From: Thermoplasmata archaeon
Lineage (GTDB): Archaea > Thermoplasmatota > Thermoplasmata > Lutacidiplasmatales > UBA184
Reading direction: 5' to 3'
Assembly: GCA_021796385.1 (NCBI GenBank)
Contig: JAJYXQ010000023.1
Span: 16,807 to 80,806, forward strand
DNA length: 64,000 nt
The notes below the pieces were generated by a model. That model was given only the letters and a program-made list of their open reading frames with translations. It was not told where the DNA came from and did no database searches. A program made the position numbers and the translations under genes. Below, piece after piece: positions 1 through 27,344 of this stretch (position 1 is the first letter of the stretch; each line of letters opens with the position of its first letter).

Positions 1-186
1 GGCCCCGTTTCCGGAGGGGGCGGGACCCAAGGATCCCCGGGTCTGGTGAGGAAGGGCTCCTCGCAGGGGTTATCCGGTGTGGGGGCTATCGTTCACCGGA
101 GTACGATTCGTGAATGGTAACCTTTCACGGTTGAGCCCGGCGATGGCCCAGTCAAGCTGACCCATCGATTCCGACAAGTTCAGGGT

Positions 187-1641
187 TCACTTGGGGGCTG
201 GAGGACCCGGGCCAAACTGGAACGGGATCTCCCCCTTCAGCACTCGAGTCCCAAGCTCTCGGTAGGCGATCCCCTGTAGCTGTCCCGTCTGGATCACGCT
301 GGCCAGCAAGGCGGTGCGGTCCGCCCCCTTCTTCGTCCGGGATCCCCAGGACAGCTTCCGTTTCACGGCGATGTGAGGACGGAGTCCTTGCTCTGCGATG
401 TTGTTGTGAGCATCCACACCCATCTCCGCCCACCACCACAGCTCGTCCCAGTGCTTGCTCCCGTACTTTTGAAGGGTCAGGGCCACCGTGCCCTCACGCT
501 TCACTCCCAGCCATCGGCGGGCCCACGCCATCAACCGCTTGGCCTCCCGGGCCTTCTCTTCCCCGGTGGGCCACTTGGCCACCTCCAAGATCCGCCGGCA
601 CAGTTTCTCCATCGCTCGCAGACCGCGCCAGTCCGGGGCATCGGAGGGGCGTTCCCATCCCTCCTGCCCCTGCTTCGCCTTCCGTAGGAGGTGGACCCAG
701 CACCGTTGCTTCTTCCCGTGCACGGCGTTGAAGGCCACCCCTCCATCACAGTTCAACACCTGTCCCTTGGGTCGACGCTTCCCGAGGACTCCCTCGGGAA
801 CCTCGTGGCCTGCCGACTTGTCCACCCGGAAGAAGGCCGCCTTCACATCCGGGCTGATGAAGTCCCACAGGTTGTAGTTGACCCCGTCCACTCTCCATCC
901 GGTCCAGTCCGCATTGACCTGCTTGCCTTCCTTCAGCGCCCGCCGGATCGCCTCGTAGGCAGGGGCGAAGAGACGAGCCGACCTCGCCAGCATCTTGTCG
1001 ATCTCGCCCACGCTCACTTTCAGTCCGTAGTCCGAGCTGAGGAGATCCCTCAGCATCGAGGTGGTCAAGCCCTTCAGGGACCAGTAACCAACGAGGAAGT
1101 GCGTTCCCCACGAGAAGTTCGACTTCGGGGGAGCCACGTCGTGGGGGATGTGGGCTCTCCGGATCTTCTTGCATCCCCGGCATCGGTAGCGACCGATGCG
1201 CCACTTGGTGATGCGCACATGACCAGGGATGACGGACTCCACAGTGTGCTCGTCCCATTCGAAGGGGCCCTCCAAAGGCCCTCCGCAGTCGGGACAGGCG
1301 TTCAACTCCGCCTCCCGTGTCTCGTCGATTTGCTCGGGAGGTGGTCGATGGTGCGCCTCGTGCCCCTTCTTCGCACCACGCTTGTGTGAACTCTCCTCTC
1401 CCTCCTTCTTCACGTTGGGTTTGACCCAGGGAGGGGGAGGACTTCGCCTTCCCTCCTGGAGTTCGAGGAGATGGCGGAGTCGCTCGATCTCCTTGTCCTG
1501 CTCTTCGATGCGGTGCTGAAGGCGAGCCAGAAGCTCCTCGAGCTTCTTCTTGGAAATGATGAGGGTCTCCTCGGATGCCCCGTCTGCAAGAAGTCCGTCC
1601 ACCGCCGGAGAAACCATACTTCCGGCAATAGAGGAAGACAA
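187..1641 (-). CDS. IS66-family transposase (TnpC-like, single-ORF type); mobile element gene
   Basis: 484-aa ORF with an N-terminal leucine-zipper/coiled-coil (KKKLEELLARLQHRIEEQDKEIERLRHLLELQ), a CPDCGG zinc-finger motif and a conserved IS66 core (WVHLLRK, DETREAELN). Host-like high GC. No convincing TnpB-like orf2 upstream. Confidence 0.85.
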   Translation of the reverse strand: MSSSIAGSMVSPAVDGLLADGASEETLIISKKKLEELLARLQHRIEEQDKEIERLRHLLELQEGRRSPPPPWVKPNVKKEGEESSHKRGAKKGHEAHHRPPPEQIDETREAELNACPDCGGPLEGPFEWDEHTVESVIPGHVRITKWRIGRYRCRGCKKIRRAHIPHDVAPPKSNFSWGTHFLVGYWSLKGLTTSMLRDLLSSDYGLKVSVGEIDKMLARSARLFAPAYEAIRRALKEGKQVNADWTGWRVDGVNYNLWDFISPDVKAAFFRVDKSAGHEVPEGVLGKRRPKGQVLNCDGGVAFNAVHGKKQRCWVHLLRKAKQGQEGWERPSDAPDWRGLRAMEKLCRRILEVAKWPTGEEKAREAKRLMAWARRWLGVKREGTVALTLQKYGSKHWDELWWWAEMGVDAHNNIAEQGLRPHIAVKRKLSWGSRTKKGADRTALLASVIQTGQLQGIAYRELGTRVLKGEIPFQFGPGPPAPK

Positions 1642-1884
1642 TTCGCGCTTTAGACCTTTCGGTAGTAGCTCCGGTGTGAAAGTGGGAGTTCAACCGAAGG
1701 TAAAAACGCCTCGAGGGGCCCTACTGTGAAGGGTTACTCCACGGCATCCCAGATGACCAGAGGACACTCGACCAAATCCTGGGAGGGCGCCCAGAGATAC
1801 CGTCTGCGAAGGAGATAGCCTCTGAGAGCGAGTCCGAGCCCGGAGATTTCCCGGATTCGGGCGACGAGAAGGAGGACTAGGGTC

Positions 1885-3426
1885 GTGGGGTCTCTCAGTC
1901 TCACGCCCGCATTCTCTCAAAGGGCCTTTGTGTCTCCAGATCCTTTGCTGGTGTTTGGACGAGGGCAGAAGTCTGGGGATCAACGTATGGGGCTGGCACT
2001 TTACGGGCCAGCTCCACTTGTTGCGGGGCCGAGGGAAGACGCACCGATAGAACTCTCCGTGGGAATAGTCGGGACCGGGACATCCATCTCCAGCACAAAC
2101 GCATGGATGCGCTCCGTCAGCTCAGAAGTATACTGCCGTAGCAAGAAGGGTGTTACATCCTATTTTCCAGGTCTCAACGCGGACTCACCTCTTCGAACAA
2201 GCTTGCGAACTGACCCCAGAATCCAAATCATCTTGTCCACGTCTGAGGTGGCAGAGGCGGTCGCCCCGAAGGACTATGGCGAGCGTATTGACAAGGTCAC
2301 TGCTCTCTTCGCACGTTCCTTCAAAGCTCTGTCGAGCTCGGACCCTGCGCCTCAAGTGGTCCTCTGCCCACTTCCCGATCAGGTCATTGAGCGATGTGTC
2401 ACAGGGCTCGATCGGTTCGGGCGGTATCGTTCTCCCAAAAGATTGGCCCCACTGCCACGCGGACATCAGTCGAGCCTATATGACTTCCTCCCTGACATCG
2501 GTGGGATTGAGGCTGAGGCGGCCGCCGTGGACCACTACGGCAATCTTTGGAGGGCGTTGAAAATCGAAGCGATGAGGGTTGGGTTGCCGCTTCAGGTGAT
2601 ATGGTCGCGAACCTTGGAACAGGGAGTGGGGGTACAAAACTCCGCCGTCGTTGCATGGAATCTCTTCTCTGGACTTTATTACAAGGTGAAGGGGAGGCTC
2701 TGGCACCTTCCAGTGCAATCGACCACTACCTGCTACATCGGCCTTTCGTTCTACCATGAGAGGACGTCGGAGAACGACCGTCTCAACTGTAGCATGGCCC
2801 AAATCTTCTCCGATTCGGGTGATGGTTTGGTCTTCAGAGGAGGTGCTCTGGCCCGACGTTCCGAGATGGGGCTAACACCACGATTGGACGCGCACAGTGC
2901 AAAGTCCCTAGTGAGTCAATCACTCTCTCTCTACCACACTAGGATGCAGGGTGTTTATCCTGCCCGTGTGGTGGTTCACAAGAGCTCAAGGTTCTCACTG
3001 GAAGAACGGGAGGGTATCGAGTCAGCCATCACGGAGGCTGGAATCAAGCTGTTCGACATGGTTGCGATCGAGCCGGGAAGCACATACCAGTACTACCGGC
3101 TTGGAAGGTATCCCCCGCTGCGGGGGACCTCGATACGGATGCCGGATGGTCGGTGGTTAATCTACACAAGGGGGTACGTGCCCATCAACCACACGTATTC
3201 TGGGCCCGCGACTCCCTCGCCGCTCGCCGTGCTGGAGCATTTTGGGGAGTCCTCCACAGACCAAGTCCTCTCCGACATAATGGGGTTGACTCGCCTCAAC
3301 TGGAATAGTACCGACCACTCATGCCTACTTCCAGTGACCCTAGCTTCTTCCAAGAGGGTAGGAAGTGTCCTTTCGGAATACCGTGCCGAGGGCGAACCTG
3401 GCACACAGCTCAAGTTCTACATGTAG
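1885..3426 (+). CDS. PIWI-domain protein, short prokaryotic Argonaute-like (MID-PIWI), catalytically degenerate; possible true start near 2104 (MRSVSSEVY) where GC drops
   Basis: MID/PIWI junction motif NLWRALKIEAMRVGLPLQVIW (compare Ago NLxLKINxKLGG). PIWI strand motifs TCYIGLSFYH (in place of GxDVxH, D->S) and ARVVVHKSSRF (in place of HRDG). C-terminal LNWNSTDHSCLLPVTLASSKRVGSVL resembles the PIWI C-terminal PxxYYAxxAAxR region. Length 440-513 aa fits a short pAgo. Confidence 0.7.
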   Translation: MGSLSLTPAFSQRAFVSPDPLLVFGRGQKSGDQRMGLALYGPAPLVAGPREDAPIELSVGIVGTGTSISSTNAWMRSVSSEVYCRSKKGVTSYFPGLNADSPLRTSLRTDPRIQIILSTSEVAEAVAPKDYGERIDKVTALFARSFKALSSSDPAPQVVLCPLPDQVIERCVTGLDRFGRYRSPKRLAPLPRGHQSSLYDFLPDIGGIEAEAAAVDHYGNLWRALKIEAMRVGLPLQVIWSRTLEQGVGVQNSAVVAWNLFSGLYYKVKGRLWHLPVQSTTTCYIGLSFYHERTSENDRLNCSMAQIFSDSGDGLVFRGGALARRSEMGLTPRLDAHSAKSLVSQSLSLYHTRMQGVYPARVVVHKSSRFSLEEREGIESAITEAGIKLFDMVAIEPGSTYQYYRLGRYPPLRGTSIRMPDGRWLIYTRGYVPINHTYSGPATPSPLAVLEHFGESSTDQVLSDIMGLTRLNWNSTDHSCLLPVTLASSKRVGSVLSEYRAEGEPGTQLKFYM

Positions 3427-3479: not shown

Positions 3480-5549
3480 ATGGCCAAGGGGGGAGGTAAA
3501 GTAACCTCAGAAGAAAACGGGACGATCGCGCCATTGGTCAAGCCACGGGGATCTGCGAGACTGGTTTGGAACTCTAAGCCTCACCGCGAGCCAAATCCGC
3601 GGGATCTTGAGTTCCAACCCGCGGAGGTAGTATTTCCTAATCGTGCCGCGGGTCAAACCGAGCTACTCTTACCTCGAACGTCAGAGGGTGAAGTGGATGA
3701 TAGTAAACTAAACCGTCTGATATGGGGAGACAATCTGCTTACCATGCAGGTGCTCTTGGCTCAAGGATTCGCGGGGAAATTTGAGCTCATCTACATCGAT
3801 CCCCCGTTCCTGAGTAACAGTGACTATTCCCACAACGTTTCTATAGCCGGAGTCAAAGACGTTAGACAGTCGCCTAGTATGATAGAAAGGCTTGCCTATC
3901 GCGACACTTGGAGTGGGGGTATCGACACCTACTTGGATTTTCTGTTCCCCAGACTGCAAACAATGCGGTCACTACTCAGTGACAATGGCACCATTTACAT
4001 CCACCTTGGACCGTCAGTTGCCCCATACGTCAGGGTGCTAACGGACGAAATCTTTGGAACTGCAAGGTTTCAGACCACGGTCATTTGGAAAAGAACTTCG
4101 GCTCACTCCGACACTCAGGGGTGGGGGAGAAATTATGACGAGATTCTCGTGTACTCTAAGGGAGACGCGCCAATCTGGAATCAAATGTATGGGGAGTACT
4201 CGGATGAGTACGTAAAATCGCATTACAACATGAAAGGTGAGGACGGGCGCCTCTTCATGCCAGACAACCTAACTGCGTCGGGTCTTAGTCACGGGAGCTC
4301 CGGGATGGCTTGGAAGGGTTTTGATCCTTCGACAAAGGGCTGTCACTGGAAATTTACTGTCGAGAAGCTTGACATACTTGACGCTCAGGGACGAATATAT
4401 TGGCCGCCGTCCGGGGGTTGGCCACGTTACAAGAGATATCTAGATGAAATGTCAGGGATACCGTTGCAAAGTATCTGGACAGATGTACCTCCAGTAAATA
4501 GCCAAGCAAGAGAAGATTCCGGATTTGACACCCAGAAACCACTCTCCTTACTGAAGAGGATTATCTCCGCGTCTTCAAACCCAGACGGTCTCGTTGGTGA
4601 CTTCTTCGCTGGTTCGGGCACCACCGCAGTTGCAGCAGAAACCCTAGGGCGAAGGTGGCTGTTGTGTGACCTTGGAAAGGTGGGAATCCAAGTTTCCAGG
4701 ACAAGACTCGTAGATATCGGTGCCAAGCCCTTTGTAATCGAGAACATCGGCAACTACCAACGGGAGTTGATATACAGAGAAGGAGGGAATATTGCGATGA
4801 TGCAACGCATTGTCATGAAACTTTACGGAGCAGAACCCCATCCAGCTCACACCGACATCGGGATTTTGGATGATGGTGGAAAGAGAATCCTTGTCTATGT
4901 CGGATACCCTGATCGTCCACTGACCGCGAAGAAGACCGCCGAGCTAGTCAAGATAGCACGGTCTCTCGACGGAGTCGGTTACGACAAGTTGGTACTACTC
5001 GCTTGGGACTATGAGTATAACTATGATGAGGGAATCGAGGTCCGCAGAAAGGGGTTTGGAGTCCAGGTTGAACCACGCCTCATTCCATCGAGTATCTATG
5101 ATTACTTGCGCAAGTCGAAGAACGAGGATGACTTGATCGAAAAGTTTGCTAAGAAGATTCAATTCGGCGCCAAGCCTTATCTCAAGGTCACGTCCCCCAA
5201 GGTTACCGATAGAGGCGGAGGTGAATACAACGTCGTAGTCGCCATCGAAAAGTATGTTCTCTCCGAGATTCCAGTTGAGAATGAAGACGACCGAATCGAG
5301 CTTCATAAGATATCGGCTGGAGATAGATTCGCCGTTCTCATTGACTACTGGGCTGTGGATTGGGACTACGACGGAAAAACTTTCCGCAGCAGATGGCAAG
5401 ACTTTCGATCGAACGAGAAGGGTGGCAGGTCAATCACCACTAGGGCGAATACAACGCTCACCGAGTCTAGGCGGTTCGACATTGCAGTCCGAGTAGTCGA
5501 CGTCTTCGGGAACGATGCTACCGCAACGACAAGTGTAGATCTGAGGTAA
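3480..5549 (+). CDS. mod: Type III-like DNA methyltransferase Mod subunit (beta-class N6A/N4C MTase) with about 290-aa C-terminal extension
   Basis: N-terminal LIWGDNLLTMQVLL followed by motif IV ELIYIDPPF, then motif I FFAGSGTTAVAAETLGRRWLLCDL about 260 aa later (IV...TRD...I order = beta class, typical of Type III Mod). Its stop lies 2 bp before the Res start. Confidence 0.85.
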   Translation: MAKGGGKVTSEENGTIAPLVKPRGSARLVWNSKPHREPNPRDLEFQPAEVVFPNRAAGQTELLLPRTSEGEVDDSKLNRLIWGDNLLTMQVLLAQGFAGKFELIYIDPPFLSNSDYSHNVSIAGVKDVRQSPSMIERLAYRDTWSGGIDTYLDFLFPRLQTMRSLLSDNGTIYIHLGPSVAPYVRVLTDEIFGTARFQTTVIWKRTSAHSDTQGWGRNYDEILVYSKGDAPIWNQMYGEYSDEYVKSHYNMKGEDGRLFMPDNLTASGLSHGSSGMAWKGFDPSTKGCHWKFTVEKLDILDAQGRIYWPPSGGWPRYKRYLDEMSGIPLQSIWTDVPPVNSQAREDSGFDTQKPLSLLKRIISASSNPDGLVGDFFAGSGTTAVAAETLGRRWLLCDLGKVGIQVSRTRLVDIGAKPFVIENIGNYQRELIYREGGNIAMMQRIVMKLYGAEPHPAHTDIGILDDGGKRILVYVGYPDRPLTAKKTAELVKIARSLDGVGYDKLVLLAWDYEYNYDEGIEVRRKGFGVQVEPRLIPSSIYDYLRKSKNEDDLIEKFAKKIQFGAKPYLKVTSPKVTDRGGGEYNVVVAIEKYVLSEIPVENEDDRIELHKISAGDRFAVLIDYWAVDWDYDGKTFRSRWQDFRSNEKGGRSITTRANTTLTESRRFDIAVRVVDVFGNDATATTSVDLR

Positions 5550-5550
5550 G

Positions 5551-8448
5551 TTGATGCCAAGGCAACGAAACCTCGAGGAGGAGGATATCACCCAACTCTT
5601 CCTCAGCAAGAAGCTCGCAGAGCTTGTTGACGATTGGGCGAGGGACGACTTGCCGATTGATCAACGCTGGCCAGGAACCACCCAGACCACTCACGAGCTA
5701 CTTCGGTACTGGTTCAACCGTGATGTGGATACCCCGAGTCGGTTCCACGACGCCCAACGGCGAGCGATTGAAACTCTGGTTTACTGTCACGAAGTCTTGA
5801 GAACAATCGATGGGAAGCCCATCGGGAAACTAGCTGATATCTATGAAAGGGTCGTCCCTGACAAGATTGACCAGTTCACCCATATTGCCACTGAAACTGC
5901 GGAAACTGACTACCAGAAATATTGCCTCAAGATGGCCACTGGGTCTGGGAAGACCTGGATTCTACAAGCCGCCCTCGTGTGGCAGTATTTCAATGCGGTT
6001 CGAGGAGAGGGGGCCCCTCGAAGGTTCTCGAAGCACTTTCTTGTGGTCACTCCTGGACTCGTGGTCCTATCGCGACTTCTCGATGCATTCCTAGGCAAGA
6101 AGGATGCTAGCGGAAATCGAGACCCCACCAAGGCCGACCTCCGTAACGACCTGTTCATTCCCCCAGAATGGCGGAAGGATTTCCATGTGCGTGTAATGAG
6201 TCCAGAGGATATCAATCCCTCTACCTCTGCTGGAGATGAAGCCTTTGTGCTGGTGCTCAACTGGCACAAGCTTGCGTCTAAGGATGGACGTGAGACGCTC
6301 GCTACGCAGATTTTCGGCCGAGATGAAGGAGACAACTCCGAGGTATACCTATCTTTCCTTTCTTCTTACCCAGACCTCGTGATCTTCAATGACGAGGCGC
6401 ATCATGTGCACAGCAAGGCGCGAAGTGAGGGGAGCAAGGACATCGATGCAAAGTGGTTAGAGGCCGTTAAGCGCCTCCGCGAACACAATCGCCGCCTCGG
6501 TAGCAGGGCGGGACTATTCTTGCAAGTTGACTTCTCGGCCACCCCATTCACGGGAACAGGCAATGCAAAGCGGTACTTTCCCCATATCGTCTTTGACTAC
6601 GATCTCAAAGACGCCATGAACGGCTGGTCTCCTGTCCAGAAGAAGGTGGTCCCGCTTCCCCTCGTAAAGCAGCTGTTCCTCGAAGAGAGGCAAACAACCA
6701 CAGCGGAACTGGCCACCCTTGACTTCAGAGCGATTCGAGAAGCCGCAGATGGCAAGAAGAGAGGGGCGGTGGCGGCTTTGAGCTCTGGACAACTCCTGAT
6801 GCTTGAGATTGGGCTCAAGAAATTGGATCAGATAGCCAAGGAGTTCGCACGATCAGGATTCTCGCAGAAGGCAGTCATGTTTGTCGCTTGCGAGGAGAAC
6901 GAGGTTGCCGACCTGGTCTACGATCACCTGAAATCCCGTTCGGACGACAGAGGGCGTCTTCTCAAAGACCAGATACTTGTGATTCACAGTGACGCCAAAG
7001 ACCGGATTGCAGAGGATGAGTGGAAGGAAAACCAGTTCCTCCTCGAATCGATCGATGACCCTGAGTCGGTGAACCCCAAACGCATCATCATCAGCGTCAT
7101 GATGCTCCGTGAGGGATTCGACGTTCGGAGCATCTGCGTCACCGTGGTCCTCCGGTCGAGTGAATCCGACATCCTCTTGGAACAGATGGTAGGGCGTGGA
7201 TTACGTCTGATGTTTACCGGCCCGGAGTTCTTTGAAACCAAGCTACATGCCCTTGAACAAGTTTCTCAGGGACAGACTCCTTCGGCGGCCCTCGACTTCC
7301 TGTTCGTGGTGGACCACCCCAGATTCCGACAGTTCTACGAGACTCTCAGGAACGAGGGATTCCCTATCTACTCAGGCGACAGTTCAGGAGTGAACACCAG
7401 CGGCGATCTCCAGCCTGTCAAAGTCGACCCAACGAGAGTCTCAACGTACGACGTGGGTTGGCCAATACAGTTCCACGATGAGGGAAGGATCCCAGACCCC
7501 CGTTTGATTGACCCCAAGACCTTACCGACCTTCGGCAAGACCTTCCCAGAAGTCAAAGCAGAATTCGATGCCATCCTGATTGCCGACAAGCACAAGGTCA
7601 CCGAAAACATTGTCTCGACTTGGGGCCTTCAGACAGAACTCTTCGATTACGGTTTCTTCCTTCGTCAGATAGCACTGAGGTTAACCACCGACGGAGGGGA
7701 CCGCACAACACTTTCTGCACGCCGTTCCGAGCTCATGGAACTCATCGACCGGTACACTAGTGACTATCTTTTCGGAGCGCCCGTAGATTTCACGCTCGCT
7801 GACAACTACCGTGTGCTGGTTCATGTCCCCATCTATGACTTCGTATCGCAACGACTTCGAATCGCACTGACGGACCTCCTCGGAAAAGTTGTCTTTGAGC
7901 CTCAATCCGAAGCGGTGTGGCAACGAGTATCTCGAGTGCCCGAGATTCTCACCCGCAGTAAAACCGCCGTCACCACAACCAAGTCGGTGTACCCCAAGCA
8001 AGCACCAGCGGCCAAAGGTGGGGGTTTCGAAGCCAAGTTTATGAGGGACGTCCTCGAGCGGAGTGGCAGTGTGCTTGCCTACGCCAAGCTCGATCAGAGA
8101 CACGATTTTCGTATCCGATACGTCAACGAGTACGGCATAGCTCGGGACTATTACCCTGACTTCTTAGTGAAGACCAAGGAGAAGATGTACCTTGTGGAGA
8201 CTAAGGCCAACAAGGACATGGGCACCGCAGTGGTGGCGAGGAAGGCGCGAGCCGCAACGGGGTGGTGCGAAGCGGCTAGCCGAATCAAGCCCCCTCCCGA
8301 GTTGAATCAGCCACAGGAGTGGGAGTACGTCCTCCTATCAGAGAGGACCTACGACCTCAACCGTGCAGTTGGGTTTGACGGACTCTTGGCCACTTGCAGG
8401 ACTGAGTTGCGTCATGTCCTGGCTTTTGGACAGGGCAGGTTGCAGTAA
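5551..8448 (+). CDS. res: Type III restriction enzyme Res subunit (SF2 DEAH helicase + C-terminal PD-(D/E)xK endonuclease)
   Basis: Walker A KMATGSGKTW, motif II VIFNDEAHHV, motif VI QMVGRGLRL. C-terminal nuclease motif YPDFLVKTKEKMYLVETK (PD...ExK). 965 aa matches the EcoP15I Res size class. Confidence 0.85.
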   Translation: MMPRQRNLEEEDITQLFLSKKLAELVDDWARDDLPIDQRWPGTTQTTHELLRYWFNRDVDTPSRFHDAQRRAIETLVYCHEVLRTIDGKPIGKLADIYERVVPDKIDQFTHIATETAETDYQKYCLKMATGSGKTWILQAALVWQYFNAVRGEGAPRRFSKHFLVVTPGLVVLSRLLDAFLGKKDASGNRDPTKADLRNDLFIPPEWRKDFHVRVMSPEDINPSTSAGDEAFVLVLNWHKLASKDGRETLATQIFGRDEGDNSEVYLSFLSSYPDLVIFNDEAHHVHSKARSEGSKDIDAKWLEAVKRLREHNRRLGSRAGLFLQVDFSATPFTGTGNAKRYFPHIVFDYDLKDAMNGWSPVQKKVVPLPLVKQLFLEERQTTTAELATLDFRAIREAADGKKRGAVAALSSGQLLMLEIGLKKLDQIAKEFARSGFSQKAVMFVACEENEVADLVYDHLKSRSDDRGRLLKDQILVIHSDAKDRIAEDEWKENQFLLESIDDPESVNPKRIIISVMMLREGFDVRSICVTVVLRSSESDILLEQMVGRGLRLMFTGPEFFETKLHALEQVSQGQTPSAALDFLFVVDHPRFRQFYETLRNEGFPIYSGDSSGVNTSGDLQPVKVDPTRVSTYDVGWPIQFHDEGRIPDPRLIDPKTLPTFGKTFPEVKAEFDAILIADKHKVTENIVSTWGLQTELFDYGFFLRQIALRLTTDGGDRTTLSARRSELMELIDRYTSDYLFGAPVDFTLADNYRVLVHVPIYDFVSQRLRIALTDLLGKVVFEPQSEAVWQRVSRVPEILTRSKTAVTTTKSVYPKQAPAAKGGGFEAKFMRDVLERSGSVLAYAKLDQRHDFRIRYVNEYGIARDYYPDFLVKTKEKMYLVETKANKDMGTAVVARKARAATGWCEAASRIKPPPELNQPQEWEYVLLSERTYDLNRAVGFDGLLATCRTELRHVLAFGQGRLQ

Positions 8449-8629: not shown

Positions 8630-9982
8630 ATGACACAAACAATTGAAGAGTGCGTGAGGAAAGGTGTGGAAGAGGGGCTACTCAAGTTGGAGGACGGGGT
8701 CCTCACCTATGTTCAAGCCGACAAGTCCTACACGCTTACCGATGAGGAGCAGGTACGGGCAGCCCTCTTCGTCTACCTCGTTACGGAGAAATCAGTTGTT
8801 CCTAGGTCAGTCTCAATCGAACTCGATAAAGTGGATTTGCGTATCGTGAATGACGAGGGTGGAATCCAATCAATCTACGAATGCAAGGCTGAGTGTGGAG
8901 ACGAAGCCTCGGTTCAAGCGGCCATACAACAAGCTCGTGGATATGCGGCCACTCTAGGGGTCCGAGCCTTCTTCGTTGCCTTCAGCCAGGAGAATCACCT
9001 CAAGATTCGAACGGCTAGCATGGAGTTCCCCTCTCCCGTGGTACGTCCGGCCATTCCCTCGTTTCCAACGAAGATTATCTCAACAATCAACCTCAAAGGA
9101 GGGGTAGGGAAGACTTCCATTACGTGTGCTCTTGCTGAGTTTCTGACGATTGAACGACGCAAGCGAGTCCTTGTCATCGACCTTGATCCGCAGACCAACG
9201 CAACCGTTGTCCTAATGGGAGAAGAGCAGTGGCACACGACACGCGAGACAAGAGAACTCACCCTTGCCCATTACTTCAAACGGGTTCTGGAAGAGAAGTC
9301 ACCGTCGCCTTTCGACTTTGCCACGGCCCTTGTGAAGGATACGTCAAACATTGGTGGAGGGGTCAGAGGGCTTGACTTGATCCCCTCAAGTCCTCTCTTC
9401 ATTGAGATTCAGGATGATATCCCACGCATCACCACGAAGCGGTTCGGGGCAGTCTCGCATACAATGGTATTGGACAAAGCACTGCGCCCGCTCTTGAAGA
9501 AGAACCAGTACGACTACGTCCTGATCGATTGCCCTCCAAGTCTAGGGGCACTGACTTTAAACGGACTCTTCATGAGTCAGTTCTTTCTCGTGCCATGCAT
9601 CCCCGATTGGATTTCCACCTATGGAATCCCTCAGATTCTAAAGCAAGCGTACCGGTTCTCTAATGAGCACGACCGGCCTTTGAACTGCCTTGGAGTGGTT
9701 TTCTCACGGTACAAGAAGGTGAGCCGGCTCCACGAGACAACAGTACAAAGGTATCGTGCCCTTACTGGCAAGGGCATAGATAGTGAGCCGGAAGGGCCGG
9801 TCTTTCCTAAGGTATTCGACACAGTTATCAAGGATACGGGCAAGGCTGAGTCTGCTGTAGAGCCTGATCAGCCTGTGAACACTCTCAAGCAAAAATACGG
9901 TTACGGGACACCCTCCCTCTATGATCAGTACAACAACCTCTCCCTCGAGATGATGCAAGCGATAGATGCGTTTGGGGGGTAA
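8630..9982 (+). CDS. ParA/MinD(Soj)-family ATPase with about 150-aa N-terminal extension (possible PD-(D/E)xK-like fold)
   Basis: Deviant Walker A NLKGGVGKTSIT, A-prime VLVIDLDPQTNAT, Walker B YDYVLIDCPPSLG. The N-terminal 150 aa has a D...IYECK arrangement reminiscent of PD-(D/E)xK. Its own roughly 180-bp upstream region contains the palindrome ATTCCTTGGGAAT. Confidence 0.8.
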   Translation: MTQTIEECVRKGVEEGLLKLEDGVLTYVQADKSYTLTDEEQVRAALFVYLVTEKSVVPRSVSIELDKVDLRIVNDEGGIQSIYECKAECGDEASVQAAIQQARGYAATLGVRAFFVAFSQENHLKIRTASMEFPSPVVRPAIPSFPTKIISTINLKGGVGKTSITCALAEFLTIERRKRVLVIDLDPQTNATVVLMGEEQWHTTRETRELTLAHYFKRVLEEKSPSPFDFATALVKDTSNIGGGVRGLDLIPSSPLFIEIQDDIPRITTKRFGAVSHTMVLDKALRPLLKKNQYDYVLIDCPPSLGALTLNGLFMSQFFLVPCIPDWISTYGIPQILKQAYRFSNEHDRPLNCLGVVFSRYKKVSRLHETTVQRYRALTGKGIDSEPEGPVFPKVFDTVIKDTGKAESAVEPDQPVNTLKQKYGYGTPSLYDQYNNLSLEMMQAIDAFGG

Positions 9983-9991
9983 GCAGGAAAC

Positions 9992-10408
9992 ATGCCGCAC
10001 CAAGAGCATGGGTCACGCAAGTCTCCCCTGGCAAACCCAAGAGTCTCAAGCCGCGACCCCCAAGTGGTTGCGGCAGAGCTTCGAAAGCTGGCAACAAGGA
10101 TTGAGTCTGGTGACTTACGAGCACTCTCACGGGCGGTCCGCATTCTCAGGTCAAGCACCGTTCGACCGCAGCCCCGAAAGTTTCTCGGACCTGATTTGTT
10201 CAAGATCATCACTGAGGGAGGACACTTGGCTCTGGAACGGGAGATTGCGCCACTTTCATTAGAAGATCTTCGTGCTGTGGTTTCTTCCTACGGGTTGGAC
10301 TCACATGGGCGCGTTAGAAAGTGGAAGGACGTATCGAAGGTCAGGGAATTCGTGATTGCCAGACTGCTATCACACGCAGGTTCGGGTCAACGATTTCTAG
10401 AAGGATGA
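9992..10408 (+). CDS. small protein with SAP/HeH-like DNA-binding motif; possible centromere-binding (ParB/SegB-like) partner of the ParA-like gene
   Basis: 138-aa ORF 10 bp after parA-like, same strand and same low-GC composition. C-terminal LSLEDLRAVVSSYGLDSHGRVRKWKDVSKVREFVIARL fits the SAP motif pattern L..L.V.eLR..L...GL...G.K..Li.RL. Confidence 0.45.
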   Translation: MPHQEHGSRKSPLANPRVSSRDPQVVAAELRKLATRIESGDLRALSRAVRILRSSTVRPQPRKFLGPDLFKIITEGGHLALEREIAPLSLEDLRAVVSSYGLDSHGRVRKWKDVSKVREFVIARLLSHAGSGQRFLEG

Positions 10409-11112: not shown

Positions 11113-11334
11113 TTAGGCACTGAGTTCAGGGCTAACCAACGTGAAGTGGAACTTCTCGAGAGGGTGTGCCTCGATTCTTTTCGAAGCGTCCAATATTTCG
11201 ATGGACACAATCTTCCTTCCCCTCCCGTAATCAATGACCAGTCCGTCCTCGGTCTCAACACTCTCCACGATCTTTCGGTTCTTGAGGAACTGGATGTTCA
11301 TCAGGTCGTGCTTTGCGTCGTACTCAATCTCCAT
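11113..11334 (-). CDS. DUF2283-family protein (antitoxin-like partner of DUF4258)
   Basis: 73 aa, MEIEYDAKHDLMNIQF...IVSIEILDASKRI, characteristic DUF2283 pattern. Lies 4 bp downstream of the DUF4258 gene. Confidence 0.7.
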   Translation of the reverse strand: MEIEYDAKHDLMNIQFLKNRKIVESVETEDGLVIDYGRGRKIVSIEILDASKRIEAHPLEKFHFTLVSPELSA

Positions 11335-11338
11335 GGTC

Positions 11339-11602
11339 TTACTTCCGATACCTCGTTACCTGTGATGTCAGATAGGCCGTCACGACTACATAATCCTTGT
11401 TCACACGTTCGTAGACGACACGTAGCATCATCCTCTTGCGGTTGACCACGTAGACTCTCTGCGCAACAAGCCGCCCTCCATAGCCGGGGACGGTCTCGTC
11501 CGGGGAACTGAGGGTCTCCTCCACCCACCTTCCCGGTATTCCTCGAAGACCCATCTTTCGGATGGCGAGCGGGATAATAATGATGGCTGGCATTACTTCC
11601 AC
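11339..11602 (-). CDS. DUF4258-family protein (RelE/ParE-fold toxin-like)
   Basis: 87 aa. C-terminal VYVVNRKRMMLRVVYERVNKDYVVVTAYL is typical of DUF4258. Paired with DUF2283. Confidence 0.7.
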   Translation of the reverse strand: MEVMPAIIIIPLAIRKMGLRGIPGRWVEETLSSPDETVPGYGGRLVAQRVYVVNRKRMMLRVVYERVNKDYVVVTAYLTSQVTRYRK

Positions 11603-11643
11603 CCTAACGACTCCCGCACATTAACCCTACATGAACCCTCGGT

Positions 11644-11826
11644 TCAGGCCCCCTTCCTCTGCTTCTTCGCCTTCAGCCCCAGGCGAAGAAGATAGTGGAC
11701 ATGGTCGCTTAGCGGCCGGATCTCCCTCTCGGCCTGGTCGCGGATCTCCCGCTCCAGCTCCTCGGGCAGGTAGACGGTCACCTTGACCTTTCCTTGGCTC
11801 GGCCGCCCTGGATGGCCCCCGGTCAT
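11644..11826 (-). CDS. ribbon-helix-helix (CopG/Arc-like) small DNA-binding protein, copy 1
   Basis: 60 aa: KVKVTVYLPEELEREIRDQAEREIRPLSDHVHYLLRLGL. TATA-like GGGGTATATAAGC about 25 nt upstream of the ATG on the coding strand. About 85% aa identity to 22843-23040. Confidence 0.7.
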   Translation of the reverse strand: MTGGHPGRPSQGKVKVTVYLPEELEREIRDQAEREIRPLSDHVHYLLRLGLKAKKQRKGA

Positions 11827-12614: not shown

Positions 12615-13034
12615 CTAAGGCTGGCTCGGCAAGTGGCGTCGGGCCCAAGTAAGTATCCTCTCCGCCTGCGTTACCAGCCGTGCGGCTTCACTATGTTCGA
12701 CCTCCCGGTCCTCGTACTCGATGAGGTTCTTGAGGTGCAAGACGCTCCGGATTTGGCGGACCTTCTCCTCGCCTCCTTCTAGTCGGAGTCCCCTAACCAA
12801 CTCGGCCACCTCCTCATGCCCTTCGGCCGCGGACCGGATACCCTGATGGAAGGAAGTGAGGGAGTCGCACGTTGAGATCACAGCGTGGATGGCCGCCAGC
12901 CCGGCCCCGTTGGCATTGCCAGAGCCAAGGGCAAGAGAGGCAAGCCTGGCAAAGTCTGTGGCCTTGCGCAAGTACGTGCGATAGGCTCCTTGGGAGGCAT
13001 CCCTAGTTCGACCACTAGGTCTGGGCGGCGTCAT
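12615..13034 (-). CDS. HEPN-domain protein (partner of MNT nucleotidyltransferase)
   Basis: Start MTPPRPSG overlaps the MNT stop (ATGA). Rx5H-type motif IRSAAEGHEE in an all-alpha context. The longer 263-aa track ORF start is likely spurious. Confidence 0.65.
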   Translation of the reverse strand: MTPPRPSGRTRDASQGAYRTYLRKATDFARLASLALGSGNANGAGLAAIHAVISTCDSLTSFHQGIRSAAEGHEEVAELVRGLRLEGGEEKVRQIRSVLHLKNLIEYEDREVEHSEAARLVTQAERILTWARRHLPSQP

Positions 13035-13615
13035 TTGACAATCCACCCCTCGGTCTGGATGTTCCTCAGGAGAGACTGATTGCGGGGGGTGCGGACCTCG
13101 TCCTTGGTATAGGTCAATGTCGAGAGGGGATTCCCGTAGCGTTGGAAGACCTTGGATTCCAGCTTCTCCAGATCGGGTTGAATTCTTTCCTTGTCCCGAT
13201 CCCGGTCCACTTCGATGAGCAGGTCGATGTCGCTCCGGCTGCTCTCCTGACCCTTCGTGACGGAACCATACACCACTGCGCGGAGAATCTTGGGCGATAA
13301 CAGGCCGGCTCGTAACGTCTCCAGCAGATCCTCCCTCAAGGAGTCCTCCTTTCGGAATACTTCCCGGACGACAGGGACAAGGACGTGCTCTGCCTCCAGC
13401 CTCCACAGGACAGCCCGACCCGCCCGATGCATGTGTGCGATCCCCGCGCGCTCAAGGTCCTTGAGGGCCCCGATCGCCTGGGGTGCGGAGGACCCCGATA
13501 GCCGGGCCACCTCCCGGCCTGTGGATTCGCGCGTGGGAAATCGGCAAAGGACCCGGAGCACCTTCACTCGGGAGGATGAGGCGAAGAGTTCGTCCATCGG
13601 GTGCTGGAATCGCAT
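13031..13615 (-). CDS. minimal nucleotidyltransferase (MNT) with N-terminal winged-helix domain
   Basis: YGSVTKGQESSRSDIDLLIEV = GSx9-10 DxD nucleotidyltransferase motif. N-terminal HTH (RVLCRFPTRESTGREVARL). Confidence 0.8.
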   Translation of the reverse strand: MRFQHPMDELFASSSRVKVLRVLCRFPTRESTGREVARLSGSSAPQAIGALKDLERAGIAHMHRAGRAVLWRLEAEHVLVPVVREVFRKEDSLREDLLETLRAGLLSPKILRAVVYGSVTKGQESSRSDIDLLIEVDRDRDKERIQPDLEKLESKVFQRYGNPLSTLTYTKDEVRTPRNQSLLRNIQTEGWIVK

Positions 13616-25571: not shown

Positions 25572-26297
25572 CGGGACATCGACGCGCCTTCCTTGTACTC
25601 TCAGTTGCGCCTAGTTGCCCTCACCCCATTCGAAGCGCATGATTGGTGGGAGTCCTGTGGTTCGGTTAAGACTCAAGGGCTTGAGGAAGGACAACGTAGG
25701 TGTCCCTCGTATGCTTCCATGGACCTCCTCCAAGCTTACTCGTAAAGGTCTCGGGTTTCGTCCTGAGCCGACCTTGAGGTGGGAAAACTCGACCAGTGGG
25801 GTGCAACCCGTAGCCCCCACCCCTCTCGTCGTGCCATTCGGGGTGCAGGAAATGGATGTCTTGGTCCTCCCTGTGGAAATGTTTGTCCAAGTAGAGGGCA
25901 TGTAGGTCTCAGCAACCCCCGCGCAAGGAGTCGCCGCACAGCCGTAAAAGGTCAAGTGACCCGAGAGACCTGCGAGCGCGCAAGTCACGGTAGGCCGATA
26001 GGGCGGGCAGCCGTCGCCGCCCCGAAAGCCCCAACTTTCAGACTGCGAGCGCTCAAAGGGGTCGCCGAGAAGCTCCTCCCAACCCACCCTCTGTGAATCC
26101 TAAGCGATTCAAACCTTCGCTCCTCCTGAAGAATTGGAGCGAGCACACCTGCATCCTCAGACCTTCCCCGCAGACTAAAGCGATGGTGCAAACGAAACAC
26201 ATTCCTCGCCGAGGATCTCAAGACCGACAAGCTTGCGGAACAACGTCAGAGTGAGCTTGGTCCCGGGAGCGATGGGCCCCCGGTGGTTTGGCCAGGA

Positions 26298-27344
26298 CTA
26301 TTCGAGGTGGTCCGAAGGGCCTAGGGAGAGCCGAGTGGCGAGGTTGATTCCCTCCCGCCTCCATACGTAGACCAAGAGCAATAGGAAGACGATCGCGAAC
26401 GGCACCGAGAGACCGTCCCCGATCAGGGTCCCGAAGACGGCATCCCAGAGCAGAAACGCCGCCCCCATACCCATAGCGAAGGCTGTCTGATGGAGCCGGT
26501 TCTCTTTCCAGCCGGCCCGGGTGAGGAGGAAGTACAACACGAGCCCACTGCTGAGGATGTAGAAGGCGCCCAACACCTCCCAGTAGGCCACGGAGTGGGA
26601 TCCGATGATGTATACGAACAGGAGCGAGAAGAGCCAGCAGAATGCCACAAGGAAGAACTGGCGAGGGGGTGCCGACGGCCGAGGTGTTCGCATCACCGAG
26701 GTGAACCCATCCATGGGGATCTTCCAGGCAAGGAGGATCAGGCCAAGTCCCAACGCGGCAATGAAGAGTAGGGCCGGGAGGAAGGCCATGATGCCATCGG
26801 GGTCCGACTTCAGGAACTGCAAGCCGATGTCGACAGTGAAGCATGCTGCGACGACCGGAGTCCCTCGGGAACCTAGGAGTGGCTTTCCCTTATACACAGG
26901 GAAGAGCAGCGCCACGACCAGCAGTTGGAGGCCGATACTGACCGCGGCATGGAAGATGTCGATGGGAATGAAGGTCGCCCACTCAATCCCCAGGGCGCGT
27001 CCGTACCCCCCCGGGATCTGGGTGATCCGGAACTGGGCGCCCGGGTCCACGAACGTCTTGGTCGCAAACCCTTCCTCGGCGATCCCGTATGCGGCACCCA
27101 GGGGCAGCACGGAGAGCCAGCCCTTCCCCCAACGAGCGGCGGCCTCCCAGACAAGGAGGGCGCCGCACCCGTACATGCCCAAGAGCGTCACGAACCCAAC
27201 GGCGCCGCGTGGGCTCAGCAATTCCGGGACCGGTGTCGAGAGCGAGAGGACCTCGGGGAAAGCCGCCGCGAAGACCAGCAAGACCAGCACGGGGACCCAT
27301 CGAGGGTGACCTGGAGAAACCATCGAGGTCGAGGGACGGTTCAT
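26298..27344 (-). CDS. polytopic integral membrane protein, function unknown
   Basis: 348 aa with about 9 hydrophobic helices. Convincing high-GC third-position codon usage. Confidence 0.6.
   Translation of the reverse strand: MNRPSTSMVSPGHPRWVPVLVLLVFAAAFPEVLSLSTPVPELLSPRGAVGFVTLLGMYGCGALLVWEAAARWGKGWLSVLPLGAAYGIAEEGFATKTFVDPGAQFRITQIPGGYGRALGIEWATFIPIDIFHAAVSIGLQLLVVALLFPVYKGKPLLGSRGTPVVAACFTVDIGLQFLKSDPDGIMAFLPALLFIAALGLGLILLAWKIPMDGFTSVMRTPRPSAPPRQFFLVAFCWLFSLLFVYIIGSHSVAYWEVLGAFYILSSGLVLYFLLTRAGWKENRLHQTAFAMGMGAAFLLWDAVFGTLIGDGLSVPFAIVFLLLLVYVWRREGINLATRLSLGPSDHLE

What the first reader, a model, noticed from the sequence alone, without database searches (positions are those of the whole stretch)
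1885..3426. PIWI domain with degenerate catalytic residues, and a likely missing partner at an IS66 insertion
In place of the RNase-H-like DEDX positions the protein has GLSFYH where GxDVxH is expected (D->S), and HKSS where HRDG is expected. It therefore looks like a nuclease-dead short pAgo that would need an effector. In characterised short-pAgo systems the APAZ-effector gene is immediately upstream. Here that position is occupied by an IS66 transposase (187-1641), which suggests the insertion displaced or disrupted the cognate partner, or that the partner function moved to the downstream Mod/Res. The annotated start (1885) lies in high-GC sequence. A start near 2104 (MRSVSSEVY) coincides with the GC drop and would give a 440-aa MID-PIWI protein.
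Basis: seen in the sequence. Interest (0 to 1): 0.7.

Follow-up and report, generated by a model that had tools for sequence, protein, structure and literature searches.

The report
Short Argonaute orphaned by transposon insertion
This gene encodes a nuclease-dead "short" bacterial/archaeal Argonaute whose obligatory effector partner gene, just upstream, has been cut in two by a jumping gene; this is an ordinary, well-documented case of a broken anti-plasmid/anti-phage defence system.

Summary
ORF 1885-3426 (+) is a full-length short prokaryotic Argonaute (MID-PIWI, 513 aa). All four RNase-H catalytic positions are replaced (S288, P332, S367, K490, against TtAgo D478/E512/D546/D660). The MID 5'-phosphate pocket is intact (K226, Q237, K267).

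The missing-partner idea is also right, and can now be stated exactly. Window 1740-1880 holds the last 46 codons and the stop of a nuclease-APAZ partner gene. It lies directly right of a 1,621-bp IS66-family element (117-1737).

The other 446 codons were found outside the window, in five independent assemblies that share samples with contigs carrying the pAgo junction. There they abut the IS left end with the matching 8-bp target duplication TCCACGGC. Removing the IS restores a 490-aa ORF that is 61% identical to the partner of the closest intact relative.

Of 80 relatives in reference genomes, 79 have an APAZ gene immediately upstream.

- The start near 2104 lies inside a conserved, confidently folded N-terminus, so 1885 stands.
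- Mod/Res is a neighbour, not a replacement partner.

The window's own left flank (1-116) is not the partner gene. The contig is either chimeric through a multicopy IS or carries a real rearrangement.

Verdict: a disrupted member of a known kind, of low to moderate interest.

The parts
1..116 (.). Left flank of the IS as assembled in this window. It is unrelated to the partner gene and is probably the flank of a different IS copy.
   Evidence: No similarity to partner proteins (tblastn at E<=10; APAZ profile). The last 8 nt, CGTGAATG, do not match the right-hand duplication TCCACGGC. This flank was found in no other fetched locus. In five other assemblies the IS left end abuts the partner 5' part instead.
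117..1737 (-). IS66-family insertion sequence, 1,621 bp, single ORF. Terminal inverted repeats lie at 117-143 and 1711-1737 (GTAAC...GTTAC).
   Evidence: The inverted repeat is 27 nt and 78% complementary. There is a single copy in the window. Its ends coincide with the breakpoints in the partner gene.
187..1641 (-). IS66-family DDE transposase, 484 aa, apparently intact.
   Evidence: Pfam DDE_Tnp_IS66 1.5e-21 and zf-IS66 3e-07. It is under 30% identical to annotated IS66 transposases on plasmids, with the best hits in haloarchaea.
1738..1745 (+). Right-hand copy of the 8-bp target-site duplication TCCACGGC.
   Evidence: The same octamer ends the partner 5' fragment immediately before the IS left end in L104-L108.
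1740..1880 (+). 3' remnant of the nuclease-APAZ partner gene: 46 codons plus TAG. The first two codons lie in the TSD, so 44 aa were severed from the partner. The remnant carries the conserved GIPxDQxxLDxILGG motif and an acidic C-tail, and has no in-frame start codon.
   Evidence: tblastn with the L001 partner, residues 448-483: 69% identity, E 2e-9. A profile built from 84 partners hits only this stretch in 64 kb (HMM positions 446-489 of 494, E 1.3e-9). The tail has 9 D/E in its last 20 residues. Start-codon absence is from reading the sequence.
1869..1875 (+). Shine-Dalgarno-like AAGGAGG, 9 nt upstream of the pAgo GTG start. It lies within the last codons of the remnant.
   Evidence: Sequence. 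The intact operon L001 has the same arrangement, with the partner stop 4 nt before the pAgo start.
1885..3426 (+). Short prokaryotic Argonaute (MID-PIWI), 513 aa, GTG start, intact ORF.
   Evidence: There is no excess of lineage-specific substitutions (29 vs 21, chi2 1.28) and only one private change at a column that is at least 90% conserved (F488S).
2548..2685 (+). MID 5'-end binding pocket: W222 (2548-2550), K226 (2560-2562), Q237 (2593-2595), K267 (2683-2685).
   Evidence: hhalign to TtAgo R418, K422, Q433 and K457. K226, Q237 and K267 are invariant in alignment A1. Coordinates were checked.
2746..3354 (+). The four positions equivalent to the DEDX catalytic tetrad, all substituted: S288 (2746-2748), P332 (2878-2880), S367 (2983-2985), K490 (3352-3354).
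   Evidence: hhalign to TtAgo D478, E512, D546 and D660. The tetrad is documented in PMC6114923. Coordinates were checked.
3480..8448 (+). Neighbouring type III restriction-modification pair, not part of the pAgo system: Mod 3480-5549 and Res 5551-8448.
   Evidence: Mod: Pfam N6_N4_Mtase 1e-36. Res: ResIII plus a C-terminal TnsA-like endonuclease; PADLOC MTase_III and REase_III. This pair is absent next to the closest pAgo relatives.

Best explanation
The locus is the downstream half of a two-gene short-pAgo defence operon that an insertion sequence has split.

**Ancestral state (reconstructed).** A 490-aa effector was followed 4 nt later by the 513-aa MID-PIWI pAgo. The effector had an N-terminal PD-(D/E)xK-type nuclease domain (motif (F/P)(E)D-x13-ECK), an APAZ domain and an acidic C-terminal tail.

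**Ancestral mechanism (inferred).** By analogy with the characterised nuclease-type short pAgo systems SPARDA and SPARHA:
- pAgo and effector form a heterodimer.
- The MID pocket anchors the 5' end of a small guide RNA.
- Pairing with invader DNA triggers oligomerisation, which switches on the effector nuclease for indiscriminate DNA degradation (abortive infection).
- The PIWI domain itself cannot cut.

**The disruption (shown).** A 1,621-bp single-ORF IS66-family element inserted at codon 446 of the effector gene, duplicating TCCACGGC. Three consequences follow:
1. The conserved C-terminal motif and the acidic tail (44 aa) are cut off.
2. A 451-aa truncated effector ends in five IS-encoded residues (VTFHG*).
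3. The pAgo gene is separated from its operon promoter and from translational coupling by 1.6 kb, with the transposase on the opposite strand.

**Present state.** In this window the pAgo is an intact but orphaned sensor, and I infer that the system is inactive. The intact ORF and the unaccelerated substitution rate suggest the insertion is recent. Mod/Res downstream is an independent defence-island neighbour.
For: **Identity and dead active site.**

**Partner normally upstream.**
- The two closest relatives (78% and 55% identity) have a roughly 495-aa gene abutting or overlapping the pAgo start.
- PADLOC calls that gene Aga_REase_Archaea plus REase-PNTD (APAZ). Its APAZ part matches the SPARHA and SPARDA partner chains.
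- 79 of 80 GTDB loci with relatives have an APAZ gene immediately upstream on the same strand, or fused.

**Remnant.**

**Other half of the gene.**
- P0129 (451 aa) was found with the L001 partner as query.
- Its five contigs end in the IS left end.
- The junction reads ...TCCACGGC|GTAACC..., matching the window's GGTTAC|TCCACGGC....
- Excising the IS gives an uninterrupted 490-aa ORF, 61% identical over its full length to the intact L001 partner.

**Robustness of the right junction.** Ten independent metagenome contigs carry it with 0 mismatches, and no IS-free allele was seen.

**Acidic tail.** It is a family feature: 58 of 71 partners have at least 6 D/E in the last 20 residues.

**Mechanistic analogies.**
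- SPARHA (PMC12738770).
- Abstracts of the SPARDA papers.
- Koopal 2022: short pAgos lack DEDX, and APAZ is their only specific partner (PMC9097488).

**pAgo promoter.** No sigma-70-like promoter was found on the + strand between the IS and the pAgo start.
Against: - Inactivity is inferred, not shown.
- Both halves of the effector gene and the pAgo remain open and identical across many samples. The truncated effector keeps the nuclease domain and almost all of APAZ, so a split but working (or deregulated) system is not excluded.
- The promoter scan covers only sigma-70 consensus. The organism is unidentified and may be archaeal.
- The nuclease assignment of the effector N-terminus rests on a PADLOC model name, the PD...ECK motif and an alpha-beta-beta-beta-alpha-beta secondary-structure pattern in a poor model (pLDDT 42). 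There is no Pfam hit.
- Guide and target preference and filament formation are taken from related systems that are only 27-29% identical.
- The window's own left flank disagrees with the simple-insertion picture. The exact genome arrangement in this assembly is unresolved.
Confidence: 0.8

Rival explanations
1. The system still works in split form. The 451-aa effector lacking its C-tail is expressed from the original promoter. The pAgo is transcribed from a promoter in or near the IS end. The two assemble in trans, possibly with altered (de-repressed) regulation because the acidic auto-inhibitory tail is gone.
For: - Both ORFs are intact and invariant across at least 10 (pAgo junction) and at least 5 (effector junction) independent assemblies.
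- Only 44 of 490 residues are lost.
- The pAgo shows no sign of decay.
- The pAgo's ribosome-binding site is preserved.
- In CrtSPARTA, removing the acidic C-tail gives a constitutively active complex (bioRxiv 10.1101/2023.07.12.548734).
Against: - No promoter-like site lies upstream of the pAgo.
- Operon linkage and the 4-nt coupling, conserved in relatives, are lost.
- A constitutively active nuclease effector should be toxic and counter-selected.
- The severed segment includes a motif conserved across the clade (GIPxDQxxLDxILGG), which suggests a structural role.
- In this window's contig the effector 5' part is not even adjacent.
- A sister lineage has an independent IS hit in the same gene. 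That fits inactivation rather than tuning.
Confidence: 0.12
2. The orphan pAgo has been co-opted by the adjacent type III restriction-modification pair. The pAgo would provide guide-directed recognition and Res the nuclease.
For: - Mod starts 54 nt after the pAgo stop, on the same strand.
- Homologous Mod/Res pairs (Mod 34% and 28% identical to the window's; Res 29% and 27%) sit directly beside short pAgo operons in two other phyla: L055 (Micrarchaeota) and L027 (Limnocylindria).
Against: - Both of those loci keep their own APAZ effector: Schlafen-APAZ and TIR-APAZ.
- The closest relatives of this pAgo (L001-L004) have unrelated downstream genes.
- 77 of 80 surveyed loci have no such neighbour.
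- Koopal 2022 found that APAZ proteins are the only genes specifically associated with short pAgos.
- Mod/Res has all the parts of a self-sufficient type III system.
- Co-location is what defence islands produce anyway.
Confidence: 0.04
3. The IS junction is an assembly artefact and the operon is intact in the real genome.
For: The window's left junction (116|117) is unsupported elsewhere and lacks a matching duplication. At least one join through this multicopy IS is therefore suspect.
Against: - The right junction is in 10 independent contigs. The complementary left junction, with the effector 5' part, is in 5 contigs sharing samples with it. The two carry a perfect 8-bp duplication, the signature of real transposition.
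- No contig carrying the exact pAgo or effector protein shows an uninterrupted gene.
Confidence: 0.03

Closest known systems
SPARDA (short pAgo + DREN/DUF4365-APAZ nuclease; e.g. NbaSPARDA, XauSPARDA; PDB 9jsb, 9qbl, 9qbq, 9qcc, 9vx1)
   Same: - A MID-PIWI pAgo of about 460-510 aa without a catalytic tetrad.
- These are the best structural matches to the model (TM 0.79-0.88, 27-29% identity).
- The partner has a PD-(D/E)xK-type nuclease fused to APAZ and is encoded immediately upstream.
- The APAZ region of the relative's partner hits SPARDA chain A.
- The expected mechanism is the same: guide RNA, target DNA, filament formation, collateral nuclease.
   Different: - The effector N-terminal domain of this clade is not DUF4365. 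It has no Pfam hit and is matched only by PADLOC Aga_REase_Archaea.
- pAgo identity is under 30%.
- Here the effector gene is split by an IS.
SPARHA (short pAgo + HNH-APAZ; AcaSPARHA filament, PDB 9OM4; PMC12738770)
   Same: - It is the best sequence match of the pAgo among solved structures (E 1e-68).
- It is also the best match of the partner's APAZ part (E 2.5e-8).
- It has the same two-gene architecture and a dead PIWI domain.
   Different: Its effector nuclease is HNH, not PD-(D/E)xK. SPARHA operons are intact and shown to be active.
SPARTA (short pAgo + TIR-APAZ; Koopal 2022)
   Same: - 40 of 71 partners of this pAgo's wider relatives are TIR-APAZ.
- The partner has an acidic C-tail, shown in CrtSPARTA to plug the guide-target channel. 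An equivalent acidic tail is the piece left in the window.
   Different: The SPARTA effector is an NADase, not a nuclease. No TIR domain is present in this clade's partner.
IS66-family insertion sequences, single-ORF type
   Same: DDE_Tnp_IS66 and zf-IS66 domains, terminal inverted repeats starting GTAA, and an 8-bp target duplication.
   Different: There are no TnpA/TnpB accessory ORFs. The transposase is under 30% identical to annotated IS66 transposases on plasmids.

Membership tests
Short prokaryotic Argonaute (protein family) | Only MID and PIWI domains, about 450-520 aa, with no N or PAZ domains | tested here: met
   The protein is 513 aa. It aligns end to end with SPARTA, SPARDA and SPARHA pAgo chains. 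Full-length Foldseek matches have target-normalised TM 0.75-0.88.
Short prokaryotic Argonaute (protein family) | No DEDX catalytic tetrad in PIWI | tested here: met
   S288, P332, S367 and K490 lie at TtAgo D478, E512, D546 and D660 (hhalign probability 95%). The tetrad is documented in PMC6114923. Koopal 2022 gives this as a family property.
Short prokaryotic Argonaute (protein family) | Conserved MID pocket for the guide 5' end (K-Q-K plus an aromatic or basic residue) | tested here: met
   W222, K226, Q237 and K267 align with TtAgo R418, K422, Q433 and K457. K226, Q237 and K267 are invariant in A1. Binding itself was not tested.
Short pAgo system (pAgo plus APAZ-domain effector, as operon or fusion; Koopal 2022) | An intact APAZ-effector gene adjacent to, or fused with, the pAgo gene | tested here: not met
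   Only a 46-codon 3' remnant (1740-1880) is present, and there is no other APAZ signal in 64 kb. The requirement was met ancestrally: removing the IS restores a 490-aa ORF.
SPARDA | Effector carries a DREN (DUF4365) nuclease domain | tested here: not met
   Pfam finds no DUF4365 in the partners of the closest relatives. Among the wider relatives, 6 of 71 partners do have it.
SPARHA | Effector carries an HNH nuclease domain | tested here: not met
   Only the APAZ part (residues 260-439) matches 9om4_A. The N-terminal domain does not, and there is no HNH Pfam hit.
Nuclease-type short pAgo systems in general | Guide-RNA and target-DNA dependent activation of a collateral nuclease | not testable with these tools
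   This needs biochemistry on the reconstructed 490-aa effector with the pAgo.
IS66 family | DDE_Tnp_IS66 transposase with an IS66 zinc finger | tested here: met
   Pfam 1.5e-21 and 3e-07.
IS66 family | Terminal inverted repeats beginning GTAA, and an 8-bp target-site duplication | tested here: met
   Inverted repeats at 117-143 and 1711-1737. The TCCACGGC duplication was found by combining the window's right flank with the left flank in L104-L108. It is not met by the window's own left flank, CGTGAATG.
IS66 family | Accessory TnpA/TnpB ORFs upstream of the transposase (canonical members) | tested here: not met
   Only 96 nt separate the transposase start from the IS end. This is a single-ORF variant.
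Type III restriction-modification (the neighbours) | Mod N6/N4 methyltransferase plus Res with a helicase and a C-terminal endonuclease | tested here: met
   Enzymatic activity was not tested.

The most novel reading that the evidence does not exclude
The IS insertion did not simply kill the system. It removed the effector's acidic auto-inhibitory C-tail and uncoupled the two genes, leaving a re-wired short pAgo module that is retained in the population. Either it works as a split, de-repressed nuclease system, or the orphan pAgo works with the co-oriented type III Mod/Res, whose homologues recur beside short pAgo operons in two other phyla.
Probability: 0.07. Interest if true: 0.6.

Novelty: new member of a known kind. 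Interest (0 to 1): 0.3.

Why it matters
Mainly as a clean, fully resolved example. It shows that an apparently "solo" short Argonaute in a genome annotation can be the stump of a two-gene system. It also shows that the missing half can be recovered, with exact transposition scars, from sibling assemblies.

Practical lessons:
- Orphan pAgos should be checked for short APAZ remnants before being called stand-alone.
- Contigs that run through multicopy IS elements can carry the wrong flank.
- The public gene call for this pAgo (479 aa) starts 34 codons too late.

Two small points of biological interest:
- The effector of this small clade has an uncharacterised PD-(D/E)xK-like domain with no Pfam model.
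- Two of the six known members of the clade carry independent IS insertions in the effector gene. This fits the idea that abortive-infection nucleases are costly and easily lost.

Tried and rejected
**Attempts to retrieve the genome left of the window failed.**
- Exact-protein look-ups of the NCBI pAgo call and of the transposase found nothing.
- The GTDB scan did not return the source genome.
- The JGI metagenome scan gave one 1.8-kb fragment.
- Look-ups via Mod, ParA and the 513-aa pAgo gave contigs that all break inside the IS.
- The 5' half of the partner was found only indirectly, by searching with the relative's partner protein.

**First hypothesis, later rejected.** I initially thought the partner was deleted next to the IS, because the window's flanks show no TSD and 1-116 has no similarity to the partner. 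The matching TSD in L104-L108 overturned this.

**Structure prediction of the effector.** With a 5-sequence alignment it gave pLDDT 42. That is too poor for a fold search, so none was run.

**A 112-aa ORF upstream of the effector in L104-L108.** It looks spurious (Gly/Arg-rich) and is found only in those contigs.

**Promoter scan.** It found nothing useful upstream of the pAgo, and the scan is sigma-70 only.

**Organism.** Not identified. purA scores best with bacterial-type models. The transposase's best plasmid hits and the PADLOC model name point to archaea. I ran no further search on this.

**Sheng 2014.** The paper was not held. The TtAgo tetrad was taken from PMC6114923 instead.
Full report
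**1. What is at 1885-3426**

The ORF is real: GTG start at 1885, 513 aa.
- Pfam's Piwi model misses it. PADLOC's pAgo_I model covers residues 18-513 at E 1e-119.
- Against solved structures, the best sequence match is chain B of 9OM4 (E 1e-68). This is the MID-PIWI subunit of the AcaSPARHA filament (PMC12738770).
- SPARDA and SPARTA pAgos follow and align nearly end to end, for example 8qlo_B residues 9-506 to query residues 19-512.
- An AlphaFold2 model built on a 17-sequence alignment has mean pLDDT 77.6 and pTM 0.78.
- By Foldseek the model matches the pAgo chains of SPARDA, SPARHA, SPARTA and SPARSA over its full length, with target-normalised TM 0.75-0.88 in the listed matches.

The fold is therefore MID-PIWI, and the protein is a short pAgo.

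**2. Catalytic and guide-binding residues**

I fetched TtAgo from plasmid pTT27 and aligned the family profile A1 to it with hhalign (probability 95%). The TtAgo catalytic tetrad D478/E512/D546/D660 is documented in PMC6114923.

| TtAgo position | This protein | Where it sits |
|---|---|---|
| D478 | S288 | the S of GLSFYH |
| E512 | P332 | invariant in the family |
| D546 | S367 | the first S of HKSS |
| D660 | K490 | consensus R in the family |

- In the MID domain, K226 (the K of LKIEAM), Q237 and K267 align with TtAgo K422, Q433 and K457 and are invariant in the family.
- The position of TtAgo R418 holds W222. This column varies among W, R, H and Y in relatives.
- The protein therefore looks like a competent guide binder that cannot cleave. 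Koopal et al. 2022 describe this for all short pAgos (PMC9097488).

**3. The start codon**

The proposed start near 2104 (M75, nt 2107) is wrong.
- Residues 13-74 align to solved short pAgos.
- They contain the family-invariant residues G36, G41, P42, G60 and G63.
- Residues 11-170 are modelled with block-mean pLDDT 71-94.
- The 78%- and 55%-identical homologues P0002 and P0003 start at the same place.
- AAGGAGG lies 9 nt upstream of GTG 1885.
- In the intact operon L001 the partner's stop is likewise followed 4 nt later by the pAgo start.

The public NCBI call (P0001, 479 aa) is also too short. GC fluctuates between 0.54 and 0.60 through the gene, with no meaningful step at 2104.

**4. The missing partner: the right-hand side**

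- The closest homologues each have a gene of about 495 aa abutting the pAgo start: L001 428-1912 and L004 4051-5547.
- PADLOC identifies it as Aga_REase_Archaea (N-terminal part) plus REase/SIR2/TIR-PNTD models, i.e. APAZ (C-terminal part).
- Its APAZ part matches the effector chains of SPARHA and SPARDA.
- tblastn with that protein against the window gives one significant hit. Residues 448-483 match window 1740-1847 at 69% identity, E 2e-9.
- Translation of 1740-1880 reads HGIPDDQRTLDQILGGRPEIPSAKEIASESESEPGDFPDSGDEKED*, and the stop lies 4 nt before the pAgo GTG.
- A profile built by jackhmmer from 84 partner proteins hits only this stretch in the whole 64 kb (HMM positions 446-489 of 494, E 1.3e-9).
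- The remnant begins 2 nt after the right inverted repeat of the IS. The repeats are at 117-143 and 1711-1737, GTAAC...GTTAC.

**5. The missing partner: the left-hand side**

- The window's own left flank (1-116) has no similarity to the partner. Its last octamer, CGTGAATG, does not match the right flank TCCACGGC. That initially suggested a deletion.
- A database search with the L001 partner returned only five proteins. One was P0129 (451 aa, 61% identity), present in NCBI, JGI, Logan and ENA data.
- Its five contigs (L104-L108) share samples with contigs holding the pAgo junction: JGI 3300039716, SRR22746139, ERZ27236928 and SRR13188941.
- All five end with ...GATGC TCCACGGC | GTAACCTTTCACGGTTGA.... 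This is the partner reading into the IS left end, and 127 nt of IS are identical to the window.
- P0129 is thus 446 native residues plus VTFHG*, translated from the IS inverted repeat.
- The octamer TCCACGGC flanks both sides, which is the 8-bp duplication expected of an IS66-family insertion.
- Deleting the IS and one copy of the duplication yields an uninterrupted 490-aa ORF. It is 61% identical to the L001 partner across residues 1-485.
- The event is therefore a simple insertion at codon 446 of 490.
- Ten independent metagenome contigs carry the right junction with zero mismatches. None shows an IS-free allele, and all break within the IS, as expected of a multicopy repeat.
- The window's contig joins the IS to a different flank. 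Either the assembly is chimeric through the repeat, or this strain has a real IS-IS recombination. I could not decide between these.

**6. How general the upstream partner is**

- In 80 loci from GTDB species representatives encoding relatives (29-38% identity), 78 have an APAZ-profile hit immediately upstream on the same strand. Three of these are fused or frameshifted.
- L053 is cut by its contig end but still shows the partner's C-terminus. Only L042 has none.
- Effector heads among 71 partners are: TIR 40, Schlafen 12, SMEK 6, DUF4365 6.
- The partner of this pAgo's own clade has no Pfam hit.
- It does have a canonical (F/P)(E)D-x13-ECK motif.
- Its predicted secondary structure follows an alpha-beta-beta-beta-alpha-beta order, although the model is poor.

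**7. What was cut off**

- The severed 44 residues comprise a clade-conserved motif (GIPxDQxxLDxILGG) and an acidic tail with 9 D/E in the last 20 residues.
- Such tails are general in the family. 58 of 71 partners have at least 6 D/E in the last 20 residues (median 8), against a 14% background.
- Whether this holds for a nuclease effector is unknown. It is the basis of the 'split but de-repressed' rival.

**8. Mod/Res**

- Mod (N6_N4_Mtase) and Res (ResIII helicase plus a C-terminal TnsA-like endonuclease) form a complete type III system.
- The nearest pAgo relatives have unrelated downstream genes.
- Homologous Mod/Res pairs do lie directly beside short pAgo operons in two loci:

| Locus | Organism | Position relative to the pAgo operon | Mod identity to the window's |
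|---|---|---|---|
| L055 | Micrarchaeota | downstream | 34% |
| L027 | Limnocylindria | upstream | 28% |

- Both loci keep their own APAZ gene: Schlafen-APAZ and TIR-APAZ.
- This is defence-island co-location, not partner replacement.

**9. State of the pAgo gene**

- The pAgo retains all 54 family-invariant residues.
- Six of its seven departures from columns that are at least 90% conserved are shared with P0002 and P0003. Only F488S is private.
- A relative-rate test against P0002, with P0003 as outgroup, gives 29 vs 21 lineage-specific changes (chi2 1.28, not significant).
- Either the insertion is recent or the gene is still under constraint.
- No sigma-70-like promoter is predicted between the IS and the pAgo. 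The scan does not cover archaeal promoters.

**10. A second, independent disruption**

- In L109 (JGI 3300027919), a homologue 69% identical to the reconstructed partner is interrupted after about codon 291.
- The interrupting element carries an unrelated DDE_Tnp_1-type transposase on the opposite strand.
- Thus two of the six known effector genes of this small clade carry independent IS insertions.

**11. Verdict**

It is now proven at nucleotide resolution.
- The alternative start and the Mod/Res hand-over are rejected.
- Biologically this is an IS-disrupted member of a known kind, a nuclease-type short pAgo system. Its effector head is uncharacterised.
- Functional inactivity and the ancestral mechanism are inferences from SPARDA, SPARHA and SPARTA.

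Noticed in passing
window 1-116 and the junction at 116|117: The left flank of the IS in this contig is not the partner gene and lacks the matching target duplication. Five other assemblies join the IS left end to the partner 5' part instead. The contig is probably chimeric through a multicopy IS, or the strain carries an IS-IS rearrangement.
   Followed up: partly
L109 126-2316 (JGI 3300027919): A sister-lineage effector gene, 69% identical to the reconstructed partner, is independently interrupted after about codon 291. The interrupting element carries a DDE_Tnp_1/DDE_Tnp_1_6 transposase on the opposite strand. This makes two of six clade members with IS hits in the effector gene.
   Followed up: partly
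L055 11573-16620 and L027 4068-8284: Homologues of the window's type III Mod and Res (27-34% identity, full length) lie directly next to, and co-oriented with, intact APAZ-pAgo operons in a Micrarchaeota MAG and a Limnocylindria MAG. The effector heads differ (Schlafen, TIR). This recurrent co-location is probably a defence-island effect.
   Followed up: partly
window 1885-1986 and 3480-3743: Public gene calls appear too short. The NCBI pAgo is 479 aa (starting at M35) and one JGI call is 327 aa, against the supported 513 aa. The NCBI/JGI Mod call is 601 aa, against 689 aa in ENA/Logan calls.
   Followed up: partly
window 8630-10408: A ParA/AAA_31-type ATPase (450 aa) has a roughly 145-aa N-terminal extension that weakly resembles a type I MTase N-terminal region. 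It is followed by a 138-aa ORF with no family hit. Both travel with the island in sibling contigs, and their function is unknown.
   Followed up: no
window 11113-11826 and 12615-13615: Small toxin-antitoxin-like genes lie on the minus strand. They include DUF2283 (11113-11334) with an 87-aa partner and a 60-aa ORF. There is also a 194-aa protein (13031-13615) with an ArsR-type HTH hit, whose equivalent in a sibling contig carries a weak nucleotidyltransferase (NTP_transf_2) hit. Together with pAgo and Mod/Res they form a defence/TA island of lower GC (about 0.48-0.55, against 0.62-0.67 in the IS).
   Followed up: no
window 26265-26363: ARAGORN calls a 99-nt tRNA-Ser(CGA) with the anticodon at position 39. 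Rfam does not report it at gathering threshold, and it overlaps long minus-strand ORFs. It may be a false positive or an intron-bearing tRNA.
   Followed up: no
L042 8700-11503 (Chthoniobacterales MAG): This is the only one of 80 reference loci whose short pAgo has no detectable APAZ gene or remnant upstream. A RES-Xre toxin-antitoxin pair lies downstream. It may be a genuinely solo pAgo, or its partner may be too divergent to detect.
   Followed up: partly
window 3346-3354: The only private substitution of this pAgo at a highly conserved column is F488S, two residues before K490, the position equivalent to the fourth catalytic residue. R490K is also lineage-specific. The significance is unknown.
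   Followed up: no
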